Shown: positions 1,370 through 52,991 of the stretch, piece after piece
Position numbering within the stretch: position 1 is the stretch's first letter
Layout of the letters: each line of letters opens with the position of its first letter
Source of the DNA: a virus
DNA length: 52,991 nucleotides
Virus record (IMG/VR): IMGVR_UViG_3300011896_000001
Location: 1 to 52,991 of that record
Reading direction: 5' to 3' (one strand)
Program-made: the position numbers and the translations under genes
The notes under the pieces: model-generated
The model's database searches: none
Told to the model about the DNA's origin: nothing
Seen by the model: only the letters and a program-made list of their open reading frames with translations

Positions 1370-2071
1370 TTAACCTGCTTGGCTATATTGCTTTTCCCAT
1401 CCCATTAGTACTTCAATTGCTTTCGATGCAACCTGTGAGCTAATCTCGCTTAGGTTGTCAGTTCCGATGTTTCCTTTCAATGTATCTTCAATCGTTTGTT
1501 TATCAGCTTTTGCTAAAACTGAAATGTGTGCTATTTTAGCGTGTATCATTTTCATTTGTTTTTCAGATGCTTTGCCATTACCGCCTGTGTTTTGTTGCTT
1601 AGGTTGACTGTTATTATTGCTGTATGAATTAGTTTGTTGTTTACCTTTTGTATTTTTCGCATCAGCATCATCTTCATCGGTAGGAATACCGAAGAATTTA
1701 AGTAAGAAGTACCTTTCGGAATAAGTTAATGCTGATCCATATGCTTTAGATACATCATCCTGTTGCCCGAAGAATTTCCAAGGTATCGTTTCTCGCTCTT
1801 CAGGTTTTTCAGCATTTATCCATTCGTAGAATCCATCACCTTCAATAACGAAATCCGTTATCTCTCTTCCTTTTTGATTCTTATAGCTATACTGCCAAGT
1901 TTTATGTTCGCCCATCTTAGGCATTAAGATGACTTGTAACTCATCCATGTTCTTTTTGATTTTGTGGAGTATTTGAGAACCTGTTACGTAGTCATATCCG
2001 TAACTTTTCCCGTTTTTTTTGAATACATCTATTTCTTTACGAATCGCGACTAGCTTTTGCCAGAGATTCAT
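1370..2071 (-). CDS. erf: ERF-family single-strand annealing recombinase.
   Basis: 233 aa. KSYGYDYVTGSQIL...SKAYGSALTYSERYFLLKFFGIPTDEDDAD matches the ERF superfamily pattern. It lies in the replication/recombination module. Confidence 0.85.
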   Translation of the reverse strand: MNLWQKLVAIRKEIDVFKKNGKSYGYDYVTGSQILHKIKKNMDELQVILMPKMGEHKTWQYSYKNQKGREITDFVIEGDGFYEWINAEKPEERETIPWKFFGQQDDVSKAYGSALTYSERYFLLKFFGIPTDEDDADAKNTKGKQQTNSYSNNNSQPKQQNTGGNGKASEKQMKMIHAKIAHISVLAKADKQTIEDTLKGNIGTDNLSEISSQVASKAIEVLMGWEKQYSQAG

Positions 2072-12991: not shown

Positions 12992-12996
12992 ACGAC

Positions 12997-13033: not shown

Positions 13034-13040
13034 TAGTATT

Positions 13041-13093: not shown

Positions 13094-13132
13094 TTTTAAG
13101 CAGGAAAACAAATACTCCTGCTTCGATTTCCC

Positions 13133-13723: not shown

Positions 13724-13794
13724 AACGTCACGACACCTCCTAGTGAGAGTATTCCATGAGGTTTAAAAAAATCCTGCAAATAAAAAAGCCCTGT

Positions 13795-14382: not shown

Positions 14383-14473
14383 ACCTGAACAACCTTCCCT
14401 AACGTTATATGATGTTACAATTATATAGTAAAATATTGTAATTTGATATCTTAAATACATTAGGTCTAGACTA

Positions 14474-14962
14474 TTAAATAGCCTTTGCAATCTCAACAAG
14501 CAGCCTCATAAATAAAGGAATCATTTGAACAACTATATAACCAATCCCTGCACGACTTATTAGCGAGAATCCCCGTTCCTGGCTACCAACCATAATGAAC
14601 AGCCCACCGCATAACGCTACAACGGATGCAATCGGATAGGATACGGCTTTAATCAAGAAGATAACCGGTTCAAATGCGTTTACAATACGATTGTATAATT
14701 GGCCATCTATATAATTCTTTATCTTTCCGTCGTTTGATTGCACATCTTTAAATACTTCATTTACGTCTGGATTATTTCCATCAGCAAATACATGCGGAAT
14801 ATCTATAATTTGGCTGAATATAATAGCACTACCGATCACAATACTTATTCGCGCCGCCACGGGTGCGTATTTTTTTGCTTTCTTTTTGAACAAGCTCCAC
14901 TTCTTCTTTGCTCCATAGTTACCATCCATAAAATCTTTGATGCTCATTGTCTCAGTTGCCAT
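14474..14962 (-). CDS. Membrane protein, 162 aa from MATETMSIKDF.
   Basis: Track ORF 14474..15103. An AGGGAG RBS lies 9 nt before the ATG at 14962. There are three hydrophobic segments. Confidence 0.6.
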   Translation of the reverse strand: MATETMSIKDFMDGNYGAKKKWSLFKKKAKKYAPVAARISIVIGSAIIFSQIIDIPHVFADGNNPDVNEVFKDVQSNDGKIKNYIDGQLYNRIVNAFEPVIFLIKAVSYPIASVVALCGGLFIMVGSQERGFSLISRAGIGYIVVQMIPLFMRLLVEIAKAI

Positions 14963-14981
14963 ATGGACCATCTCCCTGTTT

Positions 14982-15578
14982 TTAATGGAAATCAGTAACC
15001 GTAAATATGTTACAATCCAATCCCTCACAAAGCTTTTGGAGTTGTTTTCTGCGGTATTCCGTCGTGGTGTACCAAATAAATTTAGGAGACTTTTCAAATA
15101 CATTGCATTCCATTAATTTGCGATACTTCTGCATCTTGATACGGTTCGCGCTCATTTTCTGTTCATGATCCACTTCTACAATGTGATAACGGCCATTATC
15201 CGTAAATAATGCGTCTGCAATTATGGAAACGATACCTTTCACATTCATCTTTACTTCCTGCTTCCATGTTTTCGGGCATTCATAAGCGATGTAAATATCG
15301 TTCCTCATAATGTAATGGCGAAATTGATTCGAACGCTTGAGTATCTTCTTACTTCCGATACGTTCACGCCCTTCCTTGTTAAGATAATAAATCTTTTCTC
15401 CATCCCTAAAGCTAGACACATATTCTTCAATTCCTTTCATAACACGAGAAGCGTTCCTGTCACCGCCAAGATCGTGAAGTACCTGGATTTGCTTCCTGCT
15501 AAGAAAGCCGAGTTTCTTCAAGCTCAAGAGTATACTTTCCGTTCGCGCTTCCTTCATTGCTAACTTTTGCATTTTCAT
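14982..15578 (-). CDS. Replication-relaxation (Replic_Relax) family protein, 198 aa.
   Basis: The N-terminal wHTH is ILLSLKKLGFLSRKQIQVLHDLGGDRNASRVMKGIEE, followed by YYLNKEGRERIG and FRHYIMRNDIYI. It is paired with the FtsK-like gene. Confidence 0.7.
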   Translation of the reverse strand: MKMQKLAMKEARTESILLSLKKLGFLSRKQIQVLHDLGGDRNASRVMKGIEEYVSSFRDGEKIYYLNKEGRERIGSKKILKRSNQFRHYIMRNDIYIAYECPKTWKQEVKMNVKGIVSIIADALFTDNGRYHIVEVDHEQKMSANRIKMQKYRKLMECNVFEKSPKFIWYTTTEYRRKQLQKLCEGLDCNIFTVTDFH

Positions 15579-16794
15579 TCTCCTTTCTCGCTCTGATGTT
15601 GACGTGTGGCTTTATGATGTTATCAATTTGCTTATTATCGATATAAATTGTCTGTAGGACCTTTTTCTCGTTCGTTTGATATATAGCCCTTCCTTTTATG
15701 TTAGGAAGGCTCTCTGCACCGCCCTCGTCTAATACAGCACGGCTCCCTGCTTCTGTCTGTAATCTAAAGCAAACACGAGCGCCAATGTTTTGACGCAGTT
15801 GTGACGGCATAGCGCTATTCGTCGGATATTGGGTTGCATATATTAAACGGAATCCAGCCGCCCTGCCACGACGACCAATATCAACAATAATGTCCTGGCA
15901 CTCCTGATATGGCGCTATATCGGCTGCTTCATCTACGATTACAAAATACCGTACTGGATCCCTGGCTTCTTTTATATCTTCGTATCCTTTTTCTAGTAAG
16001 TATTCGTTTCTTTCATTCAGTTTGGTTTGCAAGTCTCTTAGAGTCTCTAGGGCTTCCTCTGGATTCTTCGCAATTGATTCGACTTGGTTTAAGAATCGGT
16101 AACGGTTGAAAGAGAGACCACCCTTCAAATCTATAAGGAATAGCTTTATATTTTCTGATTGGTTACGTACCAAGGATGTAATGATGAGCTTTAGTACATT
16201 AGATTTACCCATATCCGTCATGCCGGCAGAGATCATATGTGATAACTGGTCAAAGTCGTGTTTTATCAATCCATCCCTTGTATAACCAATAGGTACTTCC
16301 CATCCCCTACATTGCTTCATCATCTCTTCTTCAAATTTCACGAAATCAGGAATCCCTTTCTCGTAAACTCGTATTTTAAGTAACCCATCGTAAGACAGCT
16401 CAATTTCCTTTCTAACGAGTTTTTTCTTGTTTATGATGTTTTGTATTTGTTTTAAGATATCTTTTCGCAGCCGAAGAGATTTGAAGTCTTGTAGTTTAAA
16501 ATCATAAACTTTGCTCTTGTGATTTAATCCGTCCTCTAAATGTTGTATCTTTTGTTCGAAATCGGAGAAGCTAAGACCGAGCGGAATCCTATACGCATAC
16601 TCAACTCCCCATTCATTTCTCGTCTTACGGAGTAGCTGTATGGTCCTGGTCTCTTTCCCTTCTTTTACTTTCAAACCACAATTAGCGCAAATCCTTTGAA
16701 TCTTAGAGGCATCATTTGTTGCTCCTTTTTGATGCATTTTTGATAGAAAAACTACACCACCAACTGCGGCTGAACTTACTAACTCAAATATCAC
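15499..16794 (-). CDS. FtsK/SpoIIIE-family DNA translocase-like ATPase, 431 aa.
   Basis: Walker A is SAGMTDMGKSNVL and Walker B is YFVIVDEAADI. GRAAGFRLIYATQYP is also present, and there is an N-terminal TM segment. Confidence 0.9.
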   Translation of the reverse strand: MIFELVSSAAVGGVVFLSKMHQKGATNDASKIQRICANCGLKVKEGKETRTIQLLRKTRNEWGVEYAYRIPLGLSFSDFEQKIQHLEDGLNHKSKVYDFKLQDFKSLRLRKDILKQIQNIINKKKLVRKEIELSYDGLLKIRVYEKGIPDFVKFEEEMMKQCRGWEVPIGYTRDGLIKHDFDQLSHMISAGMTDMGKSNVLKLIITSLVRNQSENIKLFLIDLKGGLSFNRYRFLNQVESIAKNPEEALETLRDLQTKLNERNEYLLEKGYEDIKEARDPVRYFVIVDEAADIAPYQECQDIIVDIGRRGRAAGFRLIYATQYPTNSAMPSQLRQNIGARVCFRLQTEAGSRAVLDEGGAESLPNIKGRAIYQTNEKKVLQTIYIDNKQIDNIIKPHVNIRARKENENAKVSNEGSANGKYTLELEETRLS

Positions 16795-17106
16795 AAACTC
16801 ACACCACCCTTCTTTATGTATTCTGCAAGAATAGTCCCTGAAGATTAGAAGAGATAAAAACAGCTGTGAATCATTGAAAATACTAATTTTGTAATGTCTA
16901 AAGCAACATTCTGTGAACGAACTCTATTTGGAATAGGTAAAAAGAAGTTTTAAGAGGTCATCAATTTGGAACTGAGAATCGCAATTTGTTTGGTATGGTA
17001 AAAGGTATTCTATACAGCTTGCTCAATATTCACCATTTTTAGGGGTTTATTTTTGGTGAAACTAGGACATTACTAAGGACAACAGATTCTTTAAGGAGTG
17101 AAAGTT

Positions 17107-18903: not shown

Positions 18904-20058
18904 ATGAATAAACGTTACTTAGAATTAGACTCACTACGCGGTTTAGCTGCATTATCTGTACTATTTTATCATTGTTTAAGGATATTTCCGTCCCTTGATA
19001 TTGGGGCTCCTGATTTCGTGAATGATAGTGATAATTGGTTTATTAACGCTTTACTCAATACCCCTCTACGAATATTTTGGTCTGGACACGAATCGGTAAT
19101 TTTATTCTTTATTTTGAGTGGATTTGTACTATCACTACCATATTATGCAGGGAAGAAAATAGAATATAAAACATATATACTAAAAAGGTCTATTCGAATT
19201 TATATTCCGTATGTTATTGCAACTGTTATTGCAATGATAGCAGCCATTACCTTATCTAAAAATGGGTTTTCTATTTACAGTGATTGGTTTAATCGAATTT
19301 GGACTTATGAAACTTCATTCTCAGATATTATGAATCATGTTTTGTTCTTAGGTGATTATAATGCAAATCAGTTTAATACTGTAATTTGGTCGTTAGTGCA
19401 TGAAATGCGTATTTCTATTATTTTTCCTTTTGTAATGTTTTTCGTGTTACGTTTTAATTGGAAATATAATATAAGTCTTAGTTTTGCATTAAGCTTAATC
19501 TCATTTGTGTTACTTAAAGTGTTTATGCCTACATCAAACACGAATTTTATAATTACTATTCATTACACTTCAATGTTTATAATAGGTGCATTATTAGCAA
19601 AACATATAGACGTCATTTCGAATTATTTCAAAAAACTTAGCAAATCTAGCAAAATTATTGTTTTTTTAATTGCAGTAATTTCATACACATACAATGGATT
19701 GTTCTCTAATATTGAGATTATACATAAGTTCCTTATTGATGAATATGCAATTGCAGTTGGAGGATCTTTATTTATTATTATCGCCTTATCATCAGATGTT
19801 TTTTCGAAATTTTTAAATTTAAGACCCATATTATTTTTAGGTAAAATTTCTTATAGTTTATATCTATACCATACAATAATATTATTCTCACTAATTTACA
19901 TTTTTAACGACGTACTTCCGATTTCTATAATTTTATTTAGCGTCATAATACTTTCACTTATTTTATCTAGTATTTTTTATTATCTAGTAGAATCTCCATC
20001 TATGAAATTAGGTAAAAAGATATCTAATAAAAAACACACACAAAATAAAGCAGCTTAA
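18904..20058 (+). CDS. Acyltransferase_3-family integral membrane O-acyltransferase; a moron in reverse orientation.
   Basis: YLELDSLRGLAALSVLFYHC followed by about 10 TM segments. It has its own RBS and terminator and is the only plus-strand gene inside the late region. Confidence 0.9.
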   Translation: MNKRYLELDSLRGLAALSVLFYHCLRIFPSLDIGAPDFVNDSDNWFINALLNTPLRIFWSGHESVILFFILSGFVLSLPYYAGKKIEYKTYILKRSIRIYIPYVIATVIAMIAAITLSKNGFSIYSDWFNRIWTYETSFSDIMNHVLFLGDYNANQFNTVIWSLVHEMRISIIFPFVMFFVLRFNWKYNISLSFALSLISFVLLKVFMPTSNTNFIITIHYTSMFIIGALLAKHIDVISNYFKKLSKSSKIIVFLIAVISYTYNGLFSNIEIIHKFLIDEYAIAVGGSLFIIIALSSDVFSKFLNLRPILFLGKISYSLYLYHTIILFSLIYIFNDVLPISIILFSVIILSLILSSIFYYLVESPSMKLGKKISNKKHTQNKAA

Positions 20059-42849: not shown

Positions 42850-43025
42850 TCGCTGATTACAATTTTAAAAGTAACTTCTATTTCATTACCTAATGCCGGT
42901 TTGCTCACATCTAATAATTTAAAACCAGTATTCAATAATGAATTTTTACATTCCATAAACGTCGCTTGTTCTATGTTATCTGTTGGGTCATAAGTAACAG
43001 TTGTTATCGTTTTTACTTCCATCAT
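42846..43025 (-). CDS. Hypothetical protein, about 59 aa from MMEVKTITT.
   Basis: Track ORF 42846..43082. An AGGAAGGG RBS favours the internal ATGs at 43025 or 43022. Confidence 0.55.
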   Translation of the reverse strand: MMEVKTITTVTYDPTDNIEQATFMECKNSLLNTGFKLLDVSKPALGNEIEVTFKIVISE

Positions 43026-43171
43026 TCCCTTCCTAACCAAATGTCCATTTTGTTCAAATATAAGAATTACAGAACAACACAATTACTCATACATCGGCAT
43101 ATCTGCTACTGTGACTAAACTGGCACACGAATATATGAGGTTTACTATTATGTTGTTGTGTAATTTCTATA

Positions 43172-43206
43172 TAACAAACAAAAAAGCCATCACCGAAGTG
43201 ACAGCT
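43172..43206 (-). terminator. Strong minus-strand intrinsic terminator: AGCUGUCAC-UUCG-GUGAUGGCU followed by U6GUUUGUU.
   Basis: The 9-bp stem includes two G-U pairs that become C-A mismatches on the plus strand, so it is strand-specific. It has a UUCG tetraloop. Confidence 0.8.
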
Positions 43207-44100
43207 CTTTACAAATTATAAAAATATTAAAGGGGATGGGAGAAATCATTCACGAAAGGGGAATTTCGCAATCATTTCAAGGTCAAGATTACTCTCAACC
43301 TTCTCAAAACAACCGATACATACAATGTGACTCAGGTTTTTAGCTCTTTGGCTATCCTGGTTATCGTGTTCGGTTGCTTGGAGAAGGAAAAGACCTTCTC
43401 ATTTATCCTCCGTGGAGTTTGCCAATACTTTGGCTGTCCCGTGACTTCAGGGTGTCACATACCACTTTCCTTATTGGTCAATACATCGGTTGTTGGGAAC
43501 CTTAGCTGACCAAATCGTTTTATACAATGTAATTATATCTAGAGGGAATATGTTTATTCCGTCCCCCTGTTTGAACCTACACAACCTGTAGCGGCACCCA
43601 CTCACTGCACTACTTGTATTGGCTCAAACAAAGAGCGGAACTCTTTGCCTAACGAAAGATGTGAGTAATTCGTTAAAATTAATTGATCATTCGTTCTAAA
43701 TTGATGAAGCAGCTCTGTATTCCTATTAATATTTAGAAACGCGTAATCATCCAATCATGGACCATCACCCCATTTCCATTTTCAAGAACAACATTAACAG
43801 AGAATAAGAGGTACTATGTTCACCATCAACCCAGAGGACATGGCGGTCTCTGAGCTGATTACTAAACACAATAGAAACAGCATGACGAATGCGAGTTATC
43901 TCACACCCGCCACACTGGAATATGTCATTGTAATTAACTCATTGGTCTTTTCGTCTTAACGCGGGTTCTTACCGCCTTGCCCGCCCTACTATGCGGTATA
44001 CGTTACCGTGACATTCTCGCATAAGAACGTTTCACTTATAGGTGTACTAATCCTCTTCGATATGCGGTTGTCAAAGGGCTTGTACATATAATTTATAATT
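43207..44100 (-). ncRNA. ORF-free, GC-enriched structured transcript of about 0.9 kb between arpU and the terminator; identity unknown.
   Basis: There is no credible ORF on either strand. Perfect stems are at 43381-43400 (7 bp), 43629-43647 (7 bp), 43545-43560 (6 bp), 43441-43458, 43832-43851 and 43994-44008. No terminator separates it from arpU. Confidence 0.5.
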
Positions 44101-44150
44101 TTTAGCATTTTATTTAGTCCCCCAAAAAGTTCGCGTTTTGTTCGCTATTT

Positions 44151-44663: not shown

Positions 44664-44810
44664 TTACTTCTTTAATGAATCTAGTACTTGTTTCAATTCG
44701 CAATCATCACTATGATAATCACTGTATGAGCAATACGGACAATCATTACCAAAGAAACCTTGTGAAAACTCAAGTTCTTCTAGCAACTTAATTACTCGTT
44801 CTTTATCCAT
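44664..44810 (-). CDS. Small Cys-containing protein, 48 aa (MDKERVIKLLEELEFSQGFFGNDCPYCSYSDYHSDDCELKQVLDSLKK).
   Basis: My own translation. A GGAGG RBS lies 5 nt upstream. Confidence 0.45.
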   Translation of the reverse strand: MDKERVIKLLEELEFSQGFFGNDCPYCSYSDYHSDDCELKQVLDSLKK

Positions 44811-44821
44811 TTCTACCTCCA

Positions 44822-45028
44822 TTAAGCTGTTTTCTTATTAATAGTACATCCTCTACTGAACTGCCATCCATCATTTAAATGGTCCATCAACTCCTGATAC
44901 GTAAATACATCGAATATCGTAACGCACTGACTATCTCCAAATCCTGGTTCTTTTCGGAACAACATATATTCTTGCGTACCTTCGTATCTCTTTATGATGC
45001 TCACTCCTTTATGATCTCGTCCATTCAC
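44822..45028 (-). CDS. Hypothetical protein, 68 aa.
   Basis: Track ORF. Confidence 0.55.
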   Translation of the reverse strand: MNGRDHKGVSIIKRYEGTQEYMLFRKEPGFGDSQCVTIFDVFTYQELMDHLNDGWQFSRGCTINKKTA

Positions 45029-45431
45029 CTAACTTCTTGTCCCATATCACAACGATTAGCTCTTGTTTGTTTAAGTACTCCCATAGCTTCTTACGTATCG
45101 GGAATCCTTCATTAATTGCCTTCTTGCTTCCTTTCACATCCACAATCTCTACACGCCCGTCTGAGTACGTTACTTTAAAATCTGGTGTAAACTTCATAGC
45201 TGACTTTTTCGACTTACCTGACTTCGTTATGCTGCTCTTAATTTCAAAAGTTGGTACTAAGGTGTAGGATGGATGGCACTCGATATGAGCAACATCCTCC
45301 CGTCCCTTTAAGTACTTGTAATAATTCATCTCTGATTGTGAATCAAAATCTATTCCGTCATAAGTTACTTTCTTCTGTTTGATCCGTGGCGCATTCTTTT
45401 TCTTAGTTGTTACCTTTCTCTTTCTAATCAA
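45009..45431 (-). CDS. DUF1064-like protein (predicted PD-(D/E)XK-fold nuclease), 140 aa.
   Basis: YDGIDFDSQSEMNYYKYL...FTPDFKVTYSDGRVEIVDVKG matches the DUF1064 pattern. TTG start with a GAGGT RBS. Confidence 0.65.
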   Translation of the reverse strand: MIRKRKVTTKKKNAPRIKQKKVTYDGIDFDSQSEMNYYKYLKGREDVAHIECHPSYTLVPTFEIKSSITKSGKSKKSAMKFTPDFKVTYSDGRVEIVDVKGSKKAINEGFPIRKKLWEYLNKQELIVVIWDKKLGEWTRS

Positions 45432-45459
45432 CTAGTAACCTCACTTTCTATTAAAAGGA

Positions 45460-45696
45460 TTATTTTGTTAAAAACTTTAAATACTCTACTTCTGTTACGC
45501 ATTCGAAATCATAAAATCTCTGGTTATTATCAGTAATCACATAATGAGTTTCTTCCAATGGATCGTCATCAAATAAATAAAGATATATACCACCATGTGT
45601 TAAATCATACGGTTCTTTATCTATAACTCTTATATGTGTAGCTTCTATTTGATTGCATGGAACTAATCTAACGTTGAGTATCTCCATCTTTATCAA
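45460..45696 (-). CDS. Hypothetical protein, 78 aa.
   Basis: Track ORF. Confidence 0.6.
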   Translation of the reverse strand: MIKMEILNVRLVPCNQIEATHIRVIDKEPYDLTHGGIYLYLFDDDPLEETHYVITDNNQRFYDFECVTEVEYLKFLTK

Positions 45697-45883
45697 AATG
45701 CTCCTTCTTTTGTTTAGTTTCTTGACGATTAATGAATTCTTTCAAAATTAAAATCGTGGCTTCTTTTGTTGTATATCCAAACCGCTTTGCAAATTCTTCT
45801 GCATGAGCATGAATATACCCACGAAAAAAATATAATTTTTCTCCTTCTGTCATTTGATTGGTTATTTTTATTTCATTATTCAT
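45668..45883 (-). CDS. Hypothetical protein, 71 aa.
   Basis: Track ORF. Confidence 0.55.
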   Translation of the reverse strand: MNNEIKITNQMTEGEKLYFFRGYIHAHAEEFAKRFGYTTKEATILILKEFINRQETKQKKEHFDKDGDTQR

Positions 45884-46049
45884 TTTCTACTTCAGCACAT
45901 TCATCGCATTCAAATTCCCAATGGCCTTTTTTATCGGGGAAATAATGACTTGCAGGTTCTCCGCAAGCACACCAGAATCGAGTCATGTCATCCCTATACT
46001 GCACACCTCCGTCTTCTCTTTGTATCAATGTCAATTCGCCTTTAATCAT
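45876..46049 (-). CDS. Zn-ribbon-like small protein, 57 aa from MIKGELT.
   Basis: Cysteine pattern CAC...CDEC. A GGGGAGGAAGAGGG RBS lies before the ATG at 46049. Confidence 0.55.
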   Translation of the reverse strand: MIKGELTLIQREDGGVQYRDDMTRFWCACGEPASHYFPDKKGHWEFECDECAEVENE

Positions 46050-46144
46050 TTCCCTCTTCCTCCCCTGAATAAAACTCAATATTCCGTCAATACTGTAGAT
46101 ACCATGATAATCCTTTCTCCTTGTTCCCCCTTGGAGATGAGCAG

Positions 46145-46378
46145 TTAGCTTTTGCTAGCTGCTCTTTTTAATTTGCGCCTTTCCTTTCTTTTGTCAGCTC
46201 TTTCAGCGAACCACTTTGGACACATCCAACCTATCCATACTGTTGAACTCTCTTGACATTCTATAGTGAAATTACGATGCAATTTACGTTTTCGGTTACG
46301 CTCCTTAATTTTTTTAAGGCGTTCATGCTCTCCACCAGCAGTTAATGTAGCTCTCCATCTATACATCCTCATATCCAT
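46145..46378 (-). CDS. Highly basic hypothetical protein, 77 aa.
   Basis: Track ORF, rich in K and R. Confidence 0.55.
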   Translation of the reverse strand: MDMRMYRWRATLTAGGEHERLKKIKERNRKRKLHRNFTIECQESSTVWIGWMCPKWFAERADKRKERRKLKRAASKS

Positions 46379-46407
46379 TCCCCTTTTCTACAAAATGAAA
46401 TTTTTGT

Positions 46408-46572
46408 TTAATTTTTCTTAATTGTTATTTCATTGCCGCATTGACACTCTATAAATACATCCGGCTGATAAATGCATTCAATTTCGCCATCTAACTGTAT
46501 TTCTCTTTCATCATTCAAACCATCTTTAAAAGCGACTACATTACCGCAGGTGCAGCATTTTATTTCGAACAT
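46408..46572 (-). CDS. Zn-ribbon small protein, 54 aa (MFEIKCCTCGNVV...IECQCGNEITIKKN).
   Basis: My own translation. A GAAAGGAG RBS is present. Cysteine pattern is CxxC...CxC. Confidence 0.5.
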   Translation of the reverse strand: MFEIKCCTCGNVVAFKDGLNDEREIQLDGEIECIYQPDVFIECQCGNEITIKKN

Positions 46573-46604
46573 ATCCTTATCTCCTTTCTACTAAAATGAA
46601 GTTT

Positions 46605-46874
46605 TTATTTAGCTACTTGATAAGCTTTACAAACCCATGATTCATCTTCGTCTGCATCATCCGCAAAGAATATTTCTATCTTCAATTTCAAACCATTCTC
46701 CATTACGGCCGTCGCCTCAAATACTCCGCTTATATGATCGAATTTCTTGATATCCTCGTCCTCTAACATTCCGAATTCTTCTGGGAGACTATCGTAGAAT
46801 TTTTCTACTGCATTTTCTAAATCATACTGACTTTTATATGTTTGTTCGTGAACTAACTGGACCACCATTTTCAT
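46605..46874 (-). CDS. Hypothetical acidic protein, 89 aa.
   Basis: Track ORF. Confidence 0.6.
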   Translation of the reverse strand: MKMVVQLVHEQTYKSQYDLENAVEKFYDSLPEEFGMLEDEDIKKFDHISGVFEATAVMENGLKLKIEIFFADDADEDESWVCKAYQVAK

Positions 46875-46905
46875 TCTCCTTTTCTAATAAAATAGCGTTT
46901 TTGTA

Positions 46906-47118
46906 TTAATCTTCTCCTCTGAAAACAACAGCTATATGATCTGTATTTAGTGCACATGGTAAGTACAATCCGTTTCTTAAATCAAAAAGCATTATAAATT
47001 TTTCTTCATTCAACATATCCATAATGTCGCTAAAACTTTCTTTGCTAAATAGCGTTATCAGTTCATCCTCATTTTTTAGTGATACATATAATTTCCGATA
47101 CTTGTCCAACAATTCCAC
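46906..47118 (-). CDS. Hypothetical protein, about 68-70 aa.
   Basis: Track ORF. Confidence 0.55.
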   Translation of the reverse strand: MELLDKYRKLYVSLKNEDELITLFSKESFSDIMDMLNEEKFIMLFDLRNGLYLPCALNTDHIAVVFRGED

Positions 47119-47145
47119 CTCTTATTCTCAAATAAAGATTTTGTT

Positions 47146-47298
47146 CTATTTCACGCCTTTTCCGAAACACTTACTACATTGTGCTTTTTCACCAGTATCC
47201 CGAATCGAATAATTATAAATAGATTTAAACTTAATATCAGGTACCGTTATAAAAACAAATCCTTTACCACCGCACGCCTTACACTTTCTTGCTGCCAT
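47146..47298 (-). CDS. DnaJ-type zinc-finger mini-protein, 50 aa (MAARKCKACGGKGFVF...CSKCFGKGVK).
   Basis: My own translation. Two CxxCxGxG motifs and a GAGGTG RBS. Confidence 0.5.
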   Translation of the reverse strand: MAARKCKACGGKGFVFITVPDIKFKSIYNYSIRDTGEKAQCSKCFGKGVK

Positions 47299-47337
47299 CC
47301 GCCATCACCTCACTCTCTATTAAAATAAGAATTTTGT

Positions 47338-47709
47338 TTAAATTTCATCCTCATTTTCTAGCTGCACAAAATCAACCGATTCAGAATAATATCCGTTTGA
47401 TTCACCTAACCAACGTAATGTTACATATCCCTTGATTGTTGCTAATTTATAAAACGTCCATGTGCTACTTCCCCAATCGTTATCTGGTCCATCTTGACTA
47501 ACTTCTTCTGCCATAGTTATAGGTGAACCAATAAGATCATCTAAATCTCCAATAATTTCTTCAATCCCAACCCCCTCACAGCACTCTTGCTCATGATACA
47601 TTTTGTAAACTTCACCATCAGAGGTATAGAATAATAGTTCGTTCGGAACATCTTGCTTAATTTTTGTTAAAACTTTCCCTTCCAAAATATCAAATGATAC
47701 ATAATCCAT
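47338..47709 (-). CDS. Hypothetical protein, 123 aa, with an EQxCCE motif; paralogue of 48500..48928.
   Basis: YHEQECCEGVGIEEIIGDLDDLIG aligns with DDEQSCCENFGYFMSEDDFNDFIG. Confidence 0.65.
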   Translation of the reverse strand: MDYVSFDILEGKVLTKIKQDVPNELLFYTSDGEVYKMYHEQECCEGVGIEEIIGDLDDLIGSPITMAEEVSQDGPDNDWGSSTWTFYKLATIKGYVTLRWLGESNGYYSESVDFVQLENEDEI

Positions 47710-47746
47710 TTCTCATCCGCCCTTTCTATTCAAATAACTATTTTGT

Positions 47747-48466
47747 TTAAATTTCATGTAGTTCGCCGATATAAGCTGTAACATATTGAATATGAGATTC
47801 TTGATTGTTATTTCCGAAACATGTCTCTATTCGGTCTATGTTTATACTTGGGAATCTTTCTTCCAATAGGCTTATCAATAACTTTTTATTAGTATCGTTA
47901 TCCGCTAATTGCAACTCGTTATCTTCTTTCATAAGGATGAATCCCCGATCACGTAATTGTTGGATTTTATCTACTTCATCTTTTTTATCCGATATTGGTT
48001 TTTTGCTAAAGATTCTACTAAGTCGAGTTAAACTAAAAGCGAACTTTACATCCAGCCCACCATACTCAGTGAAGGTCATTTCAGAAATATAATTAAATCC
48101 AATTTCTCTCCACCAGCCTTTAATTTTATTAGTTAATGCATTAAGCTGTTCACTCAAACCATCAATAGGCTTCATATCAGCCATTTTTTGTTCTAGTTCT
48201 CTAATACGTAAATTTGCATTCCTAAGATCAGCACTACGTCTTTCTCGTTCCTTAGCTAAATCAGATTCGTAATTTGTTTCTTTAGCTATAACTGAAATAT
48301 GACTTTCTGATAAAGAAATAAGTGTACCCTTCATCTCTTCTGTTAACTTATCTTTTGATAACCATTCATGCATTTGTTGTGCTGCAAAACATAAATCTTT
48401 TAATCTCTTTAAAGTGACCGACTTTTGATCTTCATTCAAAATAACTAATGGTTTTTGATTTTCCAC
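47747..48466 (-). CDS. Hypothetical coiled-coil protein, 239 aa.
   Basis: Track ORF with a GTG start. Confidence 0.65.
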   Translation of the reverse strand: MENQKPLVILNEDQKSVTLKRLKDLCFAAQQMHEWLSKDKLTEEMKGTLISLSESHISVIAKETNYESDLAKERERRSADLRNANLRIRELEQKMADMKPIDGLSEQLNALTNKIKGWWREIGFNYISEMTFTEYGGLDVKFAFSLTRLSRIFSKKPISDKKDEVDKIQQLRDRGFILMKEDNELQLADNDTNKKLLISLLEERFPSINIDRIETCFGNNNQESHIQYVTAYIGELHEI

Positions 48467-48499
48467 TTCTCATTCCCCTTTTCGATTAAAATAACGCTT

Positions 48500-48928
48500 T
48501 TATAACACTTCATCATGATTAATTTGTTTTGAAATAACTTTAGCTTCATGACCGTAATATCCGTTATGTTCGTTGTAAGCTACAAATTGGAGAGTCCCTT
48601 TAGATGTGACGATATCGACGAACATTACATCACCTTCAAAGTACTCACTTTCTATATCCAAATCATGCTTTTCAAGAAGCCCTTCTTTTAATTCCGTATC
48701 AGTTATTTTTACATCAATAAGTTGCGCACCTATAAAATCGTTAAAATCATCTTCTGACATAAAGTAACCAAAGTTTTCGCAGCAAGATTGTTCATCATCA
48801 ATCAATAGCTTGATTACCTGTTCGTTTGTCGTTATAGCGTAACCACTCATGCTTGCCCATCGCACCTTCTCTTGATGCTCTTCAATTTTTAAGATTTGTT
48901 CCATTTTTAGTTCCTCCCTTGTTTTCAT
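48500..48928 (-). CDS. Hypothetical protein, 142 aa, with an EQxCCE motif.
   Basis: Track ORF; see 47338..47709. Confidence 0.65.
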   Translation of the reverse strand: MKTREELKMEQILKIEEHQEKVRWASMSGYAITTNEQVIKLLIDDEQSCCENFGYFMSEDDFNDFIGAQLIDVKITDTELKEGLLEKHDLDIESEYFEGDVMFVDIVTSKGTLQFVAYNEHNGYYGHEAKVISKQINHDEVL

Positions 48929-48947
48929 ACAAAATTCAAATTTTGTT

Positions 48948-49394
48948 TTACATTACTCCCGTTGATCCAAACCCACCAACGCCGCGCTCGCTATCCGATA
49001 GTTCGTCCACTTCTTCAAAATGAGCTGTTACTACCGGCGCTATGACGCCTTGAGCGATGCGAGTTCCCTTTTCAATTACATGTGCTTTCATATTTAAACT
49101 TATTGATCTTTCAGTATTATCAACCAACACCCCAACTTCTCCACGGTAGCCACTATCCACTGTTCCAAGAACAACTCTCAACTTTGTATTACGCGTCATA
49201 CCGCTACGCGGGCGTACCTGTAATTCATAACCTGGTGGAATCTCGAAAGCTAATCCGGTTTGTACAACTTTTGTTTCGCCTGGCCAGATAATCGTGTCCT
49301 CCGCTGCTACAAGATCAAAACCGCTATCTCCTGGCTTCGCATATCGCGGCAACTCCACATCTCTTACTCGCTTTATCTTTGTTCTTAAGTTCAT
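48948..49394 (-). CDS. dut: dUTPase (trimeric type), 148 aa.
   Basis: AKPGDSGFDL, RPRSG, GTVDSGYRGE and GGFGSTG motifs. Confidence 0.95.
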   Translation of the reverse strand: MNLRTKIKRVRDVELPRYAKPGDSGFDLVAAEDTIIWPGETKVVQTGLAFEIPPGYELQVRPRSGMTRNTKLRVVLGTVDSGYRGEVGVLVDNTERSISLNMKAHVIEKGTRIAQGVIAPVVTAHFEEVDELSDSERGVGGFGSTGVM

Positions 49395-49407
49395 TCCATT
49401 CCGCTCC

Positions 49408-49575
49408 TTATAAGTAACTTTTCAACTCTTTCTTCCGATTTTTCAACTCATCCAAAGCTTTTCTCGTCTTCTGCCTTTCACCATCCATCATGACTAGGTG
49501 GTATTCTAGATTACTAATATCGCTTTCTACCTTTTTAAGCTCACCTTCCACCTGTATTTTGGTTTCTTTCTTCAT
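49408..49575 (-). CDS. Hypothetical coiled-coil protein, 55 aa.
   Basis: My own translation (MKKETKIQVEGELKKVESDISNLEYH...). A GGAGGG RBS is present. Confidence 0.45.
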   Translation of the reverse strand: MKKETKIQVEGELKKVESDISNLEYHLVMMDGERQKTRKALDELKNRKKELKSYL

Positions 49576-50217: not shown

Positions 50218-50904
50218 TTAAGCAGAAGTACTTCTATGTAGATTCGCTTTTTGTTCACGATTGAAATACCTCTTATTTTTCACTACTGGAATTGTCATTG
50301 CGTCTTCCTTGCTCCACCCTTTATAAACGCGTTGGTAGTATGTTTTTTCGCTTATTCCATTTTTTATCGCTATAGCCGCATTGCTGATTCTTTTAATTGG
50401 TTTTTTTGTCGCCGCTTCCATTGGGTCAAAACCTAAATCCATAACCCTTTTATAAAATGTTTGATAAGCAATTCCGTTACTTTTAGCAATTTCTAATTCT
50501 TCTTTATACTCTTTAGAAAAATTCTTATGTTTTAATGGTTGTGTCGCCGCTTCGTATGGTGTCATTCCTCTTCTGAGACGAGCATAAAACGCTTCAGTTC
50601 CAATTCCATTGTCTAGTGCCATTTGAAGCTCCACGCTGTATTTATTGCATTTAACAGCAGCTTCATGAGGATCCATTCCATCTTTTATTCTCTTTTTATA
50701 AGTGCCATAATTAATGCCGTTCAATTCAGCTAACAACATTAGAGTGCGATCTGTTTGTTTGTTTTTTGTATTATGAAGAGGTTGTGTGATAGCTTTCTCA
50801 ACCGACCAACCATATTCATTTACACGTTGATATACATTTTTCTTTGAAATACCGTTTCTATTTGCAATTAAATACTGTTCGTCTGTGATGTATATTCTTG
50901 TCAT
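50218..50904 (-). CDS. Protein built from five tandem HTH-like repeats of about 35 aa, 228 aa.
   Basis: The repeat NGIsxxT(F/Y)YxRxxxGWsxEEAxTxP occurs at about residues 9, 53, 91, 133 and 173. Confidence 0.7.
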   Translation of the reverse strand: MTRIYITDEQYLIANRNGISKKNVYQRVNEYGWSVEKAITQPLHNTKNKQTDRTLMLLAELNGINYGTYKKRIKDGMDPHEAAVKCNKYSVELQMALDNGIGTEAFYARLRRGMTPYEAATQPLKHKNFSKEYKEELEIAKSNGIAYQTFYKRVMDLGFDPMEAATKKPIKRISNAAIAIKNGISEKTYYQRVYKGWSKEDAMTIPVVKNKRYFNREQKANLHRSTSA

Positions 50905-50905
50905 T

Positions 50906-51457
50906 TTAAACTTCCTCCTTATCTTTCATTGAGCGACGTCTTCCTGGATGGATTACCGGCCTCGTTGCTGCTGTTTCTAAATCTAATTTCTGATGATAGA
51001 TACGTGTGTAAAAGGTGTTACGTTTAATGCCATTCCTCTTTGCTATCTCTAACCATTCATTCATTGTGTTCATCTTTCTTACTGGTTTTGTAGCAGCTTC
51101 TTCATATCCCCAACCTAATTGCAACCTACTATAAAAGGTTGTTTTTGAAATTCCATTCTCAAGAGCTATCTTTGTCCATTTTCCATGTTTACGTTCTTTA
51201 CATACCCCTAATGGAGCAGTAATCGCTTCTTCTATACTCATCCCCGATTCATTAATTCTTGAGTACACAGTGTAGTAAGATATTCCGTTTGACTCCGCAA
51301 TTTCTTTCTCTTCTTTCGTGATTGCTCCTTCATGAACCGGAATTGTTGTCGCTTCTTTTATCGTCCAACCGTTTTTAATTCTGCTGTACAATGTGTGGTA
51401 GTTGATTCCGTTATTTAATGCTTTTTGTAAATTTTCTTCGCTTATCCAACTCGGCAT
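50906..51457 (-). CDS. Paralogue built from four copies of the same HTH-like repeat, 183 aa.
   Basis: The repeats begin at about residues 7, 48, 93 and 132. The gene is adjacent to 50218..50904. Confidence 0.7.
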   Translation of the reverse strand: MPSWISEENLQKALNNGINYHTLYSRIKNGWTIKEATTIPVHEGAITKEEKEIAESNGISYYTVYSRINESGMSIEEAITAPLGVCKERKHGKWTKIALENGISKTTFYSRLQLGWGYEEAATKPVRKMNTMNEWLEIAKRNGIKRNTFYTRIYHQKLDLETAATRPVIHPGRRRSMKDKEEV

Positions 51458-52217: not shown

Positions 52218-52991
52218 TTATGCCGTTCTATAACTAACTCCCTTAACTTGGTACAAGTATTTCTTGCTCATTCCATACAAACGATCAGCTGCCGCAAATC
52301 CTATTTTGTCTTCCAATGTGTCTAAGTCTTCATTGCTTGTATACCAAATCGGTAAATTCCGTAAGTATCGTTCATTAATAATCTTGTAATACATATCCTC
52401 TTTGAACTCGCTGTACTTCGATTTTGCTATGTCATCCCACACAAGAATGTCACAAGTGCATAAGTCATGAAGTAATTCGTTTAATCGCTTTTTATTGTCA
52501 TTTAGGAACGCTGCATTTTGTATTTCAGCCATAATATTCACATCCTGAACACATAACACTCGTATCCCTCTTAAACGCCCTGTACGCTCATCTACGACCT
52601 TGAATTTATTCAAAGCGTATTTAGCTGCTGCTATTTGTAAATGAGTCTTACCTAATCCATACGAGTTGTTTTCCTGACGCATTTTGTTTCGTTCTCCTGG
52701 AGGCAAACTTTTTAATCTCGTTTCACCAACTGACGCAATAAAACCGATACTATTCATCTTTGAATCTCTAATTTCGTTAAAGACTTTCAAATACTCGATC
52801 ATAGCATCATATAAAACTTTCTGCACTTCTGCTTCTCTTATGTAGTTATCGAATCGTGCATTTTCAAACTCAGATGGAATCATTGCGTACTTGAAACGAG
52901 ATTTTAGACTTTTCCGTTCTAAGCATTCACATTCGATAGCAACATCAACATATTTTCCTTTTAGAAATTCAGATGGCTCTTTAATGAATGT
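52218..52991 (-). CDS. DnaC/DnaI (IstB-like AAA+) helicase loader. The 3' part is shown here; the ORF runs through the terminal duplication and its 5' end is at 108..257.
   Basis: Walker A is NSYGLGKTHL and Walker B is ILVWDDIAKS. My translation of 52884-52991 is stop-free in the same frame. Confidence 0.85.
   Translation of the reverse strand, partial: TFIKEPSEFLKGKYVDVAIECECLERKSLKSRFKYAMIPSEFENARFDNYIREAEVQKVLYDAMIEYLKVFNEIRDSKMNSIGFIASVGETRLKSLPPGERNKMRQENNSYGLGKTHLQIAAAKYALNKFKVVDERTGRLRGIRVLCVQDVNIMAEIQNAAFLNDNKKRLNELLHDLCTCDILVWDDIAKSKYSEFKEDMYYKIINERYLRNLPIWYTSNEDLDTLEDKIGFAAADRLYGMSKKYLYQVKGVSYRTA
52885..52991. repeat. Second copy of the terminal duplication, identical to 1-107.
   Basis: Exact 107/107 identity, read directly. 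Confidence 0.95.

What the first reader, a model, noticed from the sequence alone, without database searches (positions are those of the whole stretch)
45432..48947. Conserved motif of about 30 nt repeated in nine consecutive intercistronic gaps of the early region
Every gap between the small early genes from 45.4 to 48.9 kb carries the same sequence. In the coding (minus) sense it reads stop, ACAAAA, nnn(n), TTATTTTA, n, TAGAAAGG, then the start. Several copies form an A/U mini-hairpin (ACAAAAT...ATTTTGT) just before the SD. This conservation far exceeds what an RBS needs and is absent from the other operons of the phage. Possible roles are a binding site for an early regulator or host factor, an RNase processing or translational-coupling signal, or recombination linkers that allow shuffling of small gene cassettes.
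Basis: seen in the sequence. Interest (0 to 1): 0.65.

Follow-up and report, generated by a model that had tools for sequence, protein, structure and literature searches.

The report
Addressed linkers between phage gene cassettes
Between the small accessory genes of this Bacillus cereus-group phage and its relatives sits a short conserved sequence; each position has its own 5-letter signature, the signatures keep a fixed order, and single genes are swapped between phages exactly at these points.

Summary
The motif is real and far above chance. In coding (minus) sense it reads stop, AYAAAA, N4-5, YATTTK, RN, then the Shine-Dalgarno sequence. It fills 9 of the 12 gene junctions between the dUTPase and DUF1064 genes, and a tenth copy lies at 43036-43053. 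It is not a promoter, a terminator or a conserved RNA hairpin.

The new result is comparative. About 150 related loci, all from B. cereus sensu lato phages of at least four genera, carry the same array. The 5 nt between ACAAAA and ATTT form about 12 discrete "addresses". Their order is nearly invariant: TTTGA > GCGTT > TAGTT > TTCTT > TCCTT > TCTTT > TCGTT > ACGCT > ACTTC > ATTTC > TAATC. The genes between two given addresses are mostly unrelated from phage to phage.

Homology blocks end at the linkers: 93% of blocks reaching a linker junction stop there, against 67% at other junctions inside the arrays. Of the >=95% identical blocks lying within arrays, 60% begin and end in linkers. The linker after dUTPase stays 15-18/18 identical (all but one locus >=16/18) while dUTPase falls to 67% nucleotide identity.

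The best reading is position-specific intercistronic linkers that act as short homology patches for single-cassette exchange. The phage encodes an Erf annealing protein. A cis-regulatory role for the shared core is not excluded.

The parts
48905..48950 (-). Linker 1, address TTTGA (core 48929-48946). It runs from the dUTPase stop to the start of cassette 1 and is a perfect 7-4-7 palindrome, ACAAAAT TTGA ATTTTGT.
   Evidence: It follows dUTPase in 31 of the dUTPase-anchored loci, with the core 15-18/18 identical to the window's (all but one locus >=16/18) at 67-93% dUTPase nucleotide identity.
48467..48503 (-). Linker 2, address GCGTT (core 48486-48503; the stop TAA lies inside the core, ATAAAA).
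47710..47749 (-). Linker 3, address TAGTT (core 47729-47746).
   Evidence: Homology blocks to L058, L073 and L042 end here.
47299..47340 (-). Linker 4, address TTCTT (core 47320-47337).
   Evidence: The Booya (95.8%) and phBC6A51 (96.7%) single-cassette matches end here.
47110..47148 (-). Linker 5, address TCTTT (core 47127-47144). The downstream start is ambiguous: GTG 47118, TTG 47112 or TTG 47109.
46869..46908 (-). Linker 6, address ACGCT (core 46887-46904).
   Evidence: The PfNC7401 block 46870-47113 (93%) ends here.
46573..46608 (-). Linker 7, address ACTTC (core 46591-46608; the stop lies inside the core).
46373..46410 (-). Linker 8, address ATTTC (core 46390-46407).
45432..45468 (-). 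Linker 9, address TAATC (core 45451-45468). ACAAAA is coding here and the TAA of the address is the stop codon. It precedes the DUF1064 nuclease-like gene.
   Evidence: The same linker precedes RecU in BceA1, and in IEBH a small hypothetical gene that is followed by DUF1064.
43023..43053 (-). Tenth linker copy, address TGGAC. It has no upstream ORF and precedes a 58-aa gene (start 43022).
   Evidence: It is conserved about 2.2-3.7 kb downstream of TAATC in many loci.
46408..48904 (-). Seven single-gene cassettes: 48500-48904 (DUF7448), 47747-48466, 47338-47709 (DUF7448), 47146-47298 (zinc-ribbon-like), 46906-47118, 46605-46868 and 46408-46572. All are of unknown function.
45460..46372 (-). A four-gene cassette in the slot ATTTC > TAATC. 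Its internal junctions carry no linker, and it contains a separate conserved hairpin element (46040-46175).
48948..49394 (-). dUTPase gene, the conserved upstream anchor of the array.
   Evidence: Pfam PF00692, E = 2e-25.
45009..45431 (-). DUF1064 / TnsA-like nuclease-fold gene, the conserved downstream anchor of the array.
   Evidence: Pfam PF06356, E = 4e-21.
1370..2071 (-). ERF-superfamily single-strand annealing protein of the same phage. It is the candidate enzyme for short-homology exchange; this assignment is inferred, not shown.
   Evidence: Pfam PF04404, E = 6e-21. Properties of Erf/Red-beta-type recombinases come from PMC3945230.

Best explanation
The motif copies are position-specific intercistronic linkers. 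They divide the accessory-gene array between dUTPase and DUF1064/ArpU into exchangeable cassettes.

Each linker has three parts: a left arm (the last 1-2 codons, the stop, and AYAAAA), a 5-nt address unique to that position, and a right arm (YATTTK, RN, and a strong Shine-Dalgarno sequence placed 7-9 nt before the start).

Shown by comparison:
- The same ordered set of about 12 linkers is shared by B. cereus-group temperate phages of several genera.
- The genes between a given pair of linkers are mostly unrelated from phage to phage.
- Homology between phages starts and stops inside the linkers.
- Gene families mostly stay in their slot. When they shift by one slot, they carry the arms with them and the addresses stay in place.

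Inferred:
- Exchange happens by short-homology recombination between matching linkers of co-resident phages or prophages, most plausibly through the phage's own Erf annealing protein.
- The address plus arms favour in-register exchange. Orthologous linkers share a median perfect run of 16 nt, up to 45, whereas linkers within one genome share only about 7 nt. This would limit deletions within a genome.
- The unstructured A/U-rich spacer and the consensus SD give any incoming ORF a ready translation start.
For: Reality and distribution.
- 70 loci from IMG/VR were found by pattern. Most carry 5-13 copies on one strand.
- In species-representative genomes, arrays occur only in B. cereus s.l. species; the other hits are single chance matches.
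- The array is present in PfNC7401 and IEBH (Cecivirus), B83 (Pushchinovirus) and BceA1 (Beceayunavirus), and in degenerate form in Wbeta.

Order.
- 330 of 342 adjacent address pairs follow one order in the pattern-derived set.
- 319 of 329 do so in a motif-independent set of 80 loci found through dUTPase.

Cassette diversity.
- The arrays hold 250 protein families in 440 ORFs. For example, TTTGA > GCGTT has 23 different contents in 29 instances, and the slot length ranges from 161 to 975 nt.

Island of identity.
- In 5,888 same-address pairs, similarity rarely extends beyond about 9 nt to the left or about 25 nt to the right of the 18-nt core. About 3% of pairs extend 30 nt or more.

Breakpoints.
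- 948 of 1015 homology blocks (93%) stop at linker junctions. The figure is 480 of 716 (67%) at non-linker junctions inside arrays and 50% outside arrays.
- Of 111 blocks of >=95% identity lying inside arrays, 67 have both ends in linker zones, which make up 14% of array length. Of those 67, 52 span exactly one cassette.
- In the window itself: Booya 95.8% over 47323-47752, phBC6A51 96.7% over 47129-47341, B83 91.8% over 48480-48905, PfNC7401 93% over 46870-47113.

Slot behaviour.
- Families are mostly slot-faithful.
- One-slot shifts keep the arms with the gene and the addresses in place. Examples are the DUF7448 gene in L042 compared with the window, and family 24.
- Families pair with different neighbours across every linker.

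Constraint.
- The TTTGA core stays 15-18/18 identical (all but one locus >=16/18) while the adjacent dUTPase ranges from 93% down to 67% nucleotide identity.

Enzyme.
- The phage encodes Erf.
- Erf/Red-beta-type recombinases work on short and diverged homology. The MEPS is 23-27 bp for Red-beta against 31-34 bp for RecA (PMC3945230).
- 17% of orthologous linker pairs share a perfect run of >=23 nt.
Against: - No recombination event was observed directly; everything is inferred from extant sequences.
- The median perfect identity between orthologous linkers (16 nt) is below the published MEPS of Red-beta. Many pairs would therefore recombine inefficiently.
- Recombination alone does not obviously explain why the core (AYAAAA...ATTT) is shared by all slots, or why linkers are more conserved than the neighbouring coding gene. 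Both facts could instead reflect a direct function.
- Non-linker junctions in the arrays are also frequent breakpoints (67%).
- My ORF calling and family clustering are crude: ORFs of >=25-40 aa, with 50% coverage required for clustering.
Confidence: 0.6

Rival explanations
1. The motif is a cis-regulatory site. The shared core would be bound on the mRNA or the DNA by a phage or host factor, for example a translational operator, an RNase or processing signal, or a stoperator-like silencing site. It would be conserved by purifying selection, and the coincidence with mosaic boundaries would be a by-product. This reading could also be true together with the linker role, as for PeSLs.
For: - The core is strictly strand-specific and sits in a fixed register. 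The stop codon starts at -4 to +1, and the start codon lies at +29/30 or +37/38.
- The core is shared by all slots and has partial dyad symmetry (AAAA..TTTT), with the left half better conserved.
- It is more conserved than the adjacent dUTPase gene.
- It persists in copies that lack an upstream or a downstream ORF.
- Multi-HTH proteins are encoded just upstream, at 50218-51457.
Against: - One factor does not explain why the 5-nt addresses differ between slots yet are conserved within a slot and in order.
- There is no RNA structure and no covariation, and no Rfam family matches.
- No copies lie in the immunity or arbitrium region of the window or of PfNC7401, as repressor stoperators would require.
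- No expression data are available. The only RNA runs found hold relatives as contigs, without read ends.
Confidence: 0.27
2. The linkers are relics of descent. An ancestral array arose by tandem duplication of a unit made of an intergenic region plus a gene. The intergenic regions are paralogues that diverged once, which produced the addresses, and they have no present role. On this reading they are simply the parts that gene replacement left untouched.
For: A shared core combined with position-specific differences and a fixed order is what duplication followed by divergence would give.
Against: - Neutral relics should decay at least as fast as neighbouring genes. Instead the linker stays 15-18/18 identical while dUTPase drops to 67% identity.
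- Replacement by illegitimate joins would not leave the linkers intact on both sides in hundreds of independent cassettes.
Confidence: 0.06
3. The motif is a promoter/terminator cassette of the PeSL type, or a set of sigma-70 promoters in front of each small gene.
For: It is A/T-rich, lies in front of every small gene, and contains TATTTT/TTTAAT-like hexamers.
Against: - None of the 26 promoter-like sites coincides with a linker, and their count (26) is below the shuffle mean of 41. None of the 15 terminator-like sites coincides with a linker either.
- The conserved part is too short to hold -35 and -10 elements with 17-nt spacing. A transcription start there would also fall in or after the SD.
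- No stable stem-loop forms.
Confidence: 0.02
4. The similarity is due to chance, from A/T richness plus an ordinary ribosome-binding site.
For: The window has 36% G+C, and the right-hand part of the motif is a normal Bacillus SD.
Against: - 13 matches against 0.82 expected, together with the PWM and shuffle test.
- The motif recurs with identical addresses and order in about 150 loci.
- Outside the B. cereus group there are only isolated single chance matches in 596 Gb.
Confidence: 0.005

Closest known systems
Botstein/Susskind 'linker' sequences of the modular theory of phage evolution, and the short conserved gene-boundary sequences reported in lambdoid phages (for example the nin region, HK620 comparison). 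Cited as summarised in PMC2839356 and from my own knowledge.
   Same: Both are short sequences conserved between phages at module boundaries. They are flanked by unrelated genes and are proposed to target homologous exchange and to keep the incoming module in a proper regulatory context.
   Different: Here the system works at single-gene resolution, with about 12 linkers in a row. All are variants of one core, each has its own 5-nt signature, and the signatures keep a fixed order across several phage genera. I know of no such ordered series for lambdoid phages.
PeSLs (promoter-early stem-loops) of T4-type phages RB49/phi1 (Arbiol et al. 2010, PMC2839356).
   Same: Both are repeated regulatory motifs in a hyperplastic region full of small ORFans. 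Insertions, deletions and replacements are bounded by the repeats, and the repeats are proposed to serve as homology for cassette shuffling by the phage's own recombination system.
   Different: PeSLs are sigma-70 promoters joined to terminator stem-loops, and they insulate cassettes at the level of transcription. The present linkers have neither element, lie within one operon and supply only stop-to-start context. PeSLs carry no positional addresses. Mini-circles were shown for PeSLs; nothing equivalent is shown here.
Start-associated sequences (SAS) and extended SAS of Cluster K mycobacteriophages (Pope et al. 2011, PMC3203893).
   Same: Both are asymmetric conserved repeats in one orientation, restricted to the non-structural genes and placed just upstream of starts, often overlapping the upstream stop. 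They are associated with genes of different families, they contain or abut the SD, and RNA pairing is not supported. In the ESAS, the left inverted repeat is better conserved than the right. Function is unknown in both cases.
   Different: The sequences are unrelated: SAS is the 13-bp GGGATAGGAGCCC, placed 3-7 bp from the start. In Cluster K, ESAS tends to go with a gene family. Here the signature goes with the position, not with the gene. No ordered addresses or breakpoint association were reported for SAS.
Stoperators of Cluster A mycobacteriophages (mentioned in PMC3203893; details from my own knowledge).
   Same: Both are many copies of a short asymmetric site in short intergenic gaps, oriented with transcription.
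   Different: Stoperators share their sequence with the immunity operator and are bound by the repressor. Here no copies lie in the immunity region, and the copies are confined to a single array.
Integron attC sites and cassette arrays (from my own knowledge; the comparison is also made in PMC2839356).
   Same: Both are arrays of single-gene, mostly promoterless cassettes separated by short conserved sites.
   Different: attC sites fold as hairpins, belong to the cassette rather than to the position, and need an adjacent integrase. Here there is no hairpin, the addresses are positional, and no integrase lies next to the array.
Intergenic repeats of halovirus HF2 (PMC8707807; only its title and the start of its abstract were seen).
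   Same: Both are short A/T-rich repeats in intergenic regions of a virus genome.
   Different: The HF2 repeats carry promoters (per the paper's title; reporter-fusion design per the abstract start). The present ones lack promoter features.

Membership tests
Recombination 'linker' sequences (Botstein-type modular exchange) | A short sequence conserved between phages whose flanking genes on both sides are unrelated. | tested here: met
   Same-address pairs share only the island: the core, plus at most about 9 nt to the left and about 25 nt to the right, in about 97% of 5,888 pairs. Cassette contents are mostly unrelated.
Recombination 'linker' sequences (Botstein-type modular exchange) | Homology breakpoints between genomes coincide with the sequence. 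| tested here: met
   93% of blocks terminate at linker junctions, against 67% and 50% at other junctions. 60% of the >=95% identical blocks have both ends in linkers, which make up 14% of array length.
Recombination 'linker' sequences (Botstein-type modular exchange) | Recombination actually occurs there at elevated frequency. | not testable with these tools
   This needs phage crosses or deep sequencing of lysates. There is only indirect support: Erf is encoded, and published MEPS values are given in PMC3945230.
PeSL (promoter-early stem-loop) cassettes | A sigma-70-type promoter within the repeat. | tested here: not met
   No promoter-like site coincides with any linker.
PeSL (promoter-early stem-loop) cassettes | A stable stem-loop or terminator within the repeat. 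| tested here: not met
   MFE values range from -1.6 to -6.7 kcal/mol, and z-scores from -2.6 to +1.3 with no common fold. No terminator-like site lies at a linker.
Structured cis-regulatory RNA (hairpin ACAAAAU...AUUUUGU) | Base pairs maintained by covariation across copies. | tested here: not met
   For positions 1 and 16 the counts are C-A 211, C-G 86, U-A 55 and U-G 55. The top mutual information is only between neighbouring spacer positions. No Rfam family matches.
Mycobacteriophage SAS/ESAS | The 13-bp GGGATAGGAGCCC consensus placed 3-7 bp upstream of the start codon. | tested here: not met
   The sequence is different, and the core lies 29-38 nt upstream of the start. The SAS definition comes from PMC3203893. 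The resemblance is analogy only.
Stoperator-type repressor sites | The same site also forms the operator in the immunity region. | tested here: not met
   No PWM hit of >=10 bits lies in the AimR/HTH region (5.5-9 kb) of the window or in the 38-42 kb immunity region of PfNC7401. Binding itself was not testable.
Integron attC cassette sites | Imperfect inverted repeats that fold, belong to the cassette and have an integrase next to the array. | tested here: not met
   Only the TTTGA linker is palindromic. The addresses stay with the position when a gene shifts slot. The genes flanking the array are dUTPase and DUF1064, not an integrase.

The most novel reading that the evidence does not exclude
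The array may be a dedicated, position-addressed cassette-exchange system, a natural counterpart of a modular cloning standard. The constant arms (stop-AYAAAA and YATTTK-SD) would be recognised by a phage function that targets breaks or annealing to the linkers. Candidates are Erf together with the DUF1064/RecU-type nuclease that always follows the last linker, or the upstream multi-HTH proteins. The 5-nt addresses would keep exchanges in register. Accessory genes, possibly including counter-defence genes, would then be swapped one at a time across phage genera at rates far above ordinary mosaicism.
Probability: 0.15. Interest if true: 0.85.

Novelty: new variant of a known kind. Interest (0 to 1): 0.7.

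Why it matters
The idea that phages swap modules through conserved linker sequences is more than 40 years old, but it has few clear molecular examples. Here is a widespread natural system in which single genes are bounded by about 12 recognisable, ordered linkers. The hypothesis becomes directly testable: cross two phages, mutate one address, delete erf.

The linkers also give a simple computational handle for cataloguing the accessory-gene pool of B. cereus-group temperate phages. That pool holds at least 250 small protein families of unknown function, in the genome region where regulators of phage-host conflict are typically found. The linkers also mark the natural boundaries at which genes are tolerated and expressed in these genomes.

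If the shared core proves to be a regulatory site, that would be a new cis-element of Firmicute phages.

Tried and rejected
- RNA hairpin: rejected. There is no covariation, folds are no better than shuffles in all but one of the nine copies and share no common structure, and Rfam has no match.
- Promoter or terminator: rejected.
- Chance or A/T richness: rejected.
- Repressor stoperator: there are no copies in the immunity regions. Binding was not tested.
- Expression evidence: no RNA run holds this phage. Two RNA(?) runs hold relatives, but only as assembler contigs without read ends. They show only that those relatives share linker-sized pieces with the window (joints at 46408>46583, 46606>46876, 47338>48477, 47749>48929) and say nothing on processing.
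- Four-gamete test at cassette-family level: uninformative, because there are too many families with too few instances. It showed only that families have two or more different partners across every linker.
- Identity over a 38-nt linker window: about 72% even for unrelated cassettes. The near-perfect island is therefore about 18-25 nt, not the full gap.
- Literature: six of the eight searches sought prior descriptions. They found PeSLs, SAS and Rad52-like relaxed recombination, but no description of this motif in B. cereus-group phages. The held library is incomplete, so this is not proof of novelty.
One PHROG call failed on a wrong frame and was repeated.

Full report
CONTEXT. The window is a temperate siphophage of the Bacillus cereus group, very likely a complete circular plasmid-prophage. 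On the minus strand it encodes an AimR arbitrium receptor, an antirepressor, an ERF-family annealing protein and DnaD- and DnaC-like loaders; the operon wraps across the window ends. These are followed by two multi-HTH proteins, a glutaredoxin-like protein and dUTPase (48948-49394). Next come the small genes in question, then a DUF1064 nuclease-like gene (45009-45431), an ArpU-type gene as annotated in the relatives (no Pfam match here), about 1 kb of non-coding DNA, and the terminase and structural genes. The closest named relatives are PfNC7401, IEBH, vB_BtS_B83, phage 250 and PfIS075. They match only in patches covering 4-23% of the region, so the region is highly mosaic.

THE OBSERVATION. 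Read in coding sense, the gaps carry: stop, AYAAAA, four or five variable bases, YATTTK, RN, (T)AGAAAGG (the Shine-Dalgarno sequence), then 7-9 nt, then the start. They occupy eight consecutive junctions from dUTPase onward, plus the junction before DUF1064. The three junctions in between (46080-46144, about 45880, about 45690) lack the motif. A tenth copy lies at 43036-43053. The degenerate pattern has 13 matches against 0.82 expected. A PWM that excludes the SD gives leave-one-out scores of 8.8-19.9 bits, where 2.1 hits of >=12 bits are expected per window. The genes upstream (49.4-52.9 kb) are joined by overlaps or by bare SD sequences and have no motif.

WHAT IT IS NOT. None of the promoter-like or terminator-like sites in 41-53 kb falls on a linker. 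Folding the nine copies gives weak and mutually different structures (MFE -1.6 to -6.7 kcal/mol; z from -2.6 to +1.3). The proposed A/U hairpin appears only in copy 1, at -3.2 kcal/mol and z = 0.25. In 423 unique copies from relatives, the would-be pair 1-16 is C-A in 211, C-G in 86, U-A in 55 and U-G in 55, so there is no covariation. The only strong mutual information is between neighbouring spacer positions. Rfam finds nothing there.

RELATIVES: A FAMILY-WIDE ARRAY. An exact-pattern scan of IMG/VR returned 70 loci, most with 5-13 PWM hits on one strand. The same scan of one genome per species (596 Gb) found arrays only in B. cereus s.l. species (B. proteolyticus, B. pfraonensis, B. fungorum, B. 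gaemokensis, B. manliponensis). It gave isolated single chance hits elsewhere. Arrays are present in PfNC7401 and IEBH (Cecivirus), B83 (Pushchinovirus) and BceA1 (Beceayunavirus), and in decayed form in Wbeta. Columns outside the PWM are independently conserved: a stop codon starting at -4 to +1 and the SD at +18 to +29.

THE KEY FINDING: ORDERED ADDRESSES. The five bases between ACAAAA and ATTT are not random. About a dozen alleles account for nearly all copies, and the nine copies in the window each carry a different one. Across loci the alleles occur in one order: TTTGA > GCGTT > TAGTT > TTCTT > (TCCTT) > TCTTT > (TCTCT) > TCGTT > ACGCT > ACTTC > ATTTC > TAATC. A further TGGAC linker lies about 2.2-3.7 kb downstream. 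In the pattern-derived loci, 330 of 342 adjacent pairs obey the order. In 80 loci fetched through dUTPase homology alone, hence independent of the motif, 319 of 329 do so. Arrays vary from 2-3 to 12-13 linkers, because slots can be missing without the order changing.

VARIABLE CASSETTES BETWEEN FIXED LINKERS. The distance between two given addresses varies widely; ACGCT > ATTTC, for example, ranges from 113 to 1491 nt. The contents are mostly unrelated: 250 protein families among 440 ORFs, 23 different contents in 29 instances of TTTGA > GCGTT, and 28 in 34 instances of GCGTT > TAGTT. Among 5,888 pairs of distinct same-address linkers, similarity usually ends within about 9 nt to the left and about 25 nt to the right of the 18-nt core. 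Only about 3% of pairs extend 30 nt or more. Per-slot consensus sequences run from about -8 (AAA nTT TAA, so the last one or two codons belong to the linker) to about +26..+35. The cassette proteins of the window have no known function; two are DUF7448 paralogues and one is a zinc-ribbon-like peptide.

BREAKPOINTS. Homology blocks between the window and relatives begin and end in linkers. Examples are 46870-47113 (PfNC7401, 93%), 46889-47340 and 48480-48905 (B83), 47321-47749 (L042) and 47720-48489 (L058). Named phages of other genera share single cassettes bounded in the same way: Booya 95.8% over 47323-47752 and phBC6A51 96.7% over 47129-47341. Over 67 loci, 93% of blocks that reach a linker junction stop there (948 against 67 that cross). 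The figure is 67% at non-linker junctions inside the arrays and 50% outside. Of 111 blocks of >=95% identity lying inside arrays, 67 have both ends in linker zones, which make up 14% of array length. Of those, 52 span exactly one cassette. Families pair with different neighbours across every linker.

ANATOMY OF THE LINKER. Gene families are mostly faithful to their slot. When a family turns up one slot away, the gene keeps its right arm (for example TATTTGAATAGAAAGGGyGGATGAGAA-ATG) and its left arm (...GAAATTTAA-ACAAAAT), while the addresses on either side are those of the new position. The DUF7448 gene in L042 compared with the window shows this, as does family 24. The arms therefore travel with the genes and the address stays with the position. 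This is the expected outcome if crossovers fall in the arms: in register most of the time, and occasionally between neighbouring slots through the shared core. Orthologous linkers share a median perfect run of 16 nt (IQR 14-19; 17% of pairs reach 23 nt or more; up to 45). Different linkers within one genome share a median of 7 nt. This fits in-register exchange with little intragenomic deletion.

CONSTRAINT. In 31 of the dUTPase-anchored loci the TTTGA linker follows the dUTPase stop directly. There its core stays 15-18/18 identical to the window's (all but one locus >=16/18), whether dUTPase is 93% or 67% identical at the nucleotide level. Linkers thus change more slowly than a neighbouring protein-coding gene. 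Either they are homogenised by continual exchange or they are under direct selection. Some copies persist without an upstream ORF (BceA1 TTTGA, window TGGAC). Others persist without a downstream SD and start, being followed by terminator-like hairpins in IEBH, PfNC7401 and Wbeta.

MECHANISM: WHAT IS SHOWN AND WHAT IS INFERRED. It is shown that the linkers are the boundaries of single-cassette mosaic exchange in a large phage population and that they form an ordered, position-specific series. It is inferred that exchange proceeds by short-homology recombination between matching linkers. The phage's own ERF-family protein (1370-2071) is the obvious candidate. Erf, RecT and Red-beta recombine short and diverged sequences far better than RecA, with a MEPS of 23-27 bp against 31-34 bp (PMC3945230). 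It is also inferred that the unstructured A/U-rich spacer with a consensus SD gives any incoming ORF a working start. The shared core and the strong conservation leave room for a second, regulatory function: a factor binding the mRNA or the DNA. I rate that at about a quarter and note that it is not exclusive of the linker role. PeSLs of T4-type phages are both regulatory and recombinogenic (PMC2839356).

COMPARISON WITH KNOWN SYSTEMS. Functionally this is the Botstein-type linker concept, and it is closest to PeSL-mediated shuffling. It fails the PeSL membership features, having neither promoter nor stem-loop. It resembles Cluster K SAS/ESAS in position, asymmetry and lack of RNA pairing (PMC3203893), but it is unrelated in sequence, and its signature tracks the position rather than the gene family. 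It is not stoperator-like, since there are no copies in the immunity region. It is not integron-like, since there is no folding, no integrase, and the addresses are positional. Searches of the held literature found no description of this motif or of its ordered addresses in B. cereus-group phages; this does not prove that none exists.

VERDICT. The recombination-linker reading is supported and sharpened into an ordered set of addressed linkers. The hairpin reading is rejected. The regulatory readings remain open. This is a new variant of a known kind, of clear interest to phage genomics because it makes the linker hypothesis experimentally testable at single-gene resolution.

Noticed in passing
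window 2954-3031 (-): A Pistol self-cleaving ribozyme (Rfam RF02679, 59.3 bits against a gathering score of 34.5, full-length match). It lies in the early operon between the antirepressor gene (3429-4196) and the Erf gene (1370-2071).
   Followed up: no
window 46040-46175 (-), inside the slot ATTTC > TAATC: A second conserved element, not related to the linker, is found in 44 related loci (41 distinct sequences) at 70-97% identity. It begins with a hairpin, GAGCAGCTAGC-AAAA-GCTAACTGCTC, which overlaps the stop of gene 46145-46372 and is preceded by an A-run; read on the + strand it looks like an intrinsic terminator (46139-46164). About 30 variable nt follow, then the invariant block TCTACAGTATTGACGGAATATTGAGTTTTATTCAGGGGAGG just before the next start. 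Three stem pairs show compensatory changes. Its function is unknown; it may be a promoter for a phage factor, or the terminator of an antisense RNA.
   Followed up: partly
window 43083-44150: About 1 kb without ORFs lies between the ArpU-like gene and the TGGAC linker. The corresponding gap is also non-coding in PfNC7401 (1105 nt) and B83 (922 nt), and it is partly conserved in 5-9 loci. There is no Rfam hit. It contains terminator-like hairpins at 43917-43878 and 43210-43181.
   Followed up: partly
window 1-17000 and 52218-52991: The window looks like a whole circular plasmid-prophage. The early operon runs across the window ends (DnaD-like 136-936, DnaC-like 52218-52991). It also carries ParA (11441-12370), an FtsK-like ATPase (15499-16794), an AimR arbitrium receptor (5532-6782) and an acyltransferase (18904-20058).
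   Followed up: partly
window 48500-48904 and 47338-47709: Two DUF7448 paralogues sit in slots 1 and 3 of the same array. The neighbouring linkers TAGTT and TTCTT share an 18-nt left arm (ATGAAATTTAAACAAAAT), so two unrelated proteins end in Glu-Ile-stop. The last codons of cassette proteins are therefore partly supplied by the linker.
   Followed up: partly
L091 (B. fungorum), L186/L187, L127: A few loci break the address order in a way that looks like partial duplication of the array or two adjacent arrays. An example is TTTGA ACGCT ATTTC TAGTT ACGCT ... in L186/L187.
   Followed up: no
L110 (phage Wbeta, record about 35.2-37.2 kb); L111 (IEBH) 6904, 7844, 8263: Some linker copies keep the left arm, the address and TATTT but are followed by a G+C-rich terminator-like hairpin instead of an SD and start. 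The slot TCGTT > ACGCT often holds about 150 nt with no ORF (12 of 30 instances).
   Followed up: no
window 44800-49500, runs X22/X23: Assembler contigs of two RNA(?) runs from another organism match the window mainly in linker-sized pieces (24-34 nt) and in the 46.1-kb element. The joints jump from linker to linker. This is consistent with related arrays that carry other cassettes, and it says nothing about RNA processing.
   Followed up: partly
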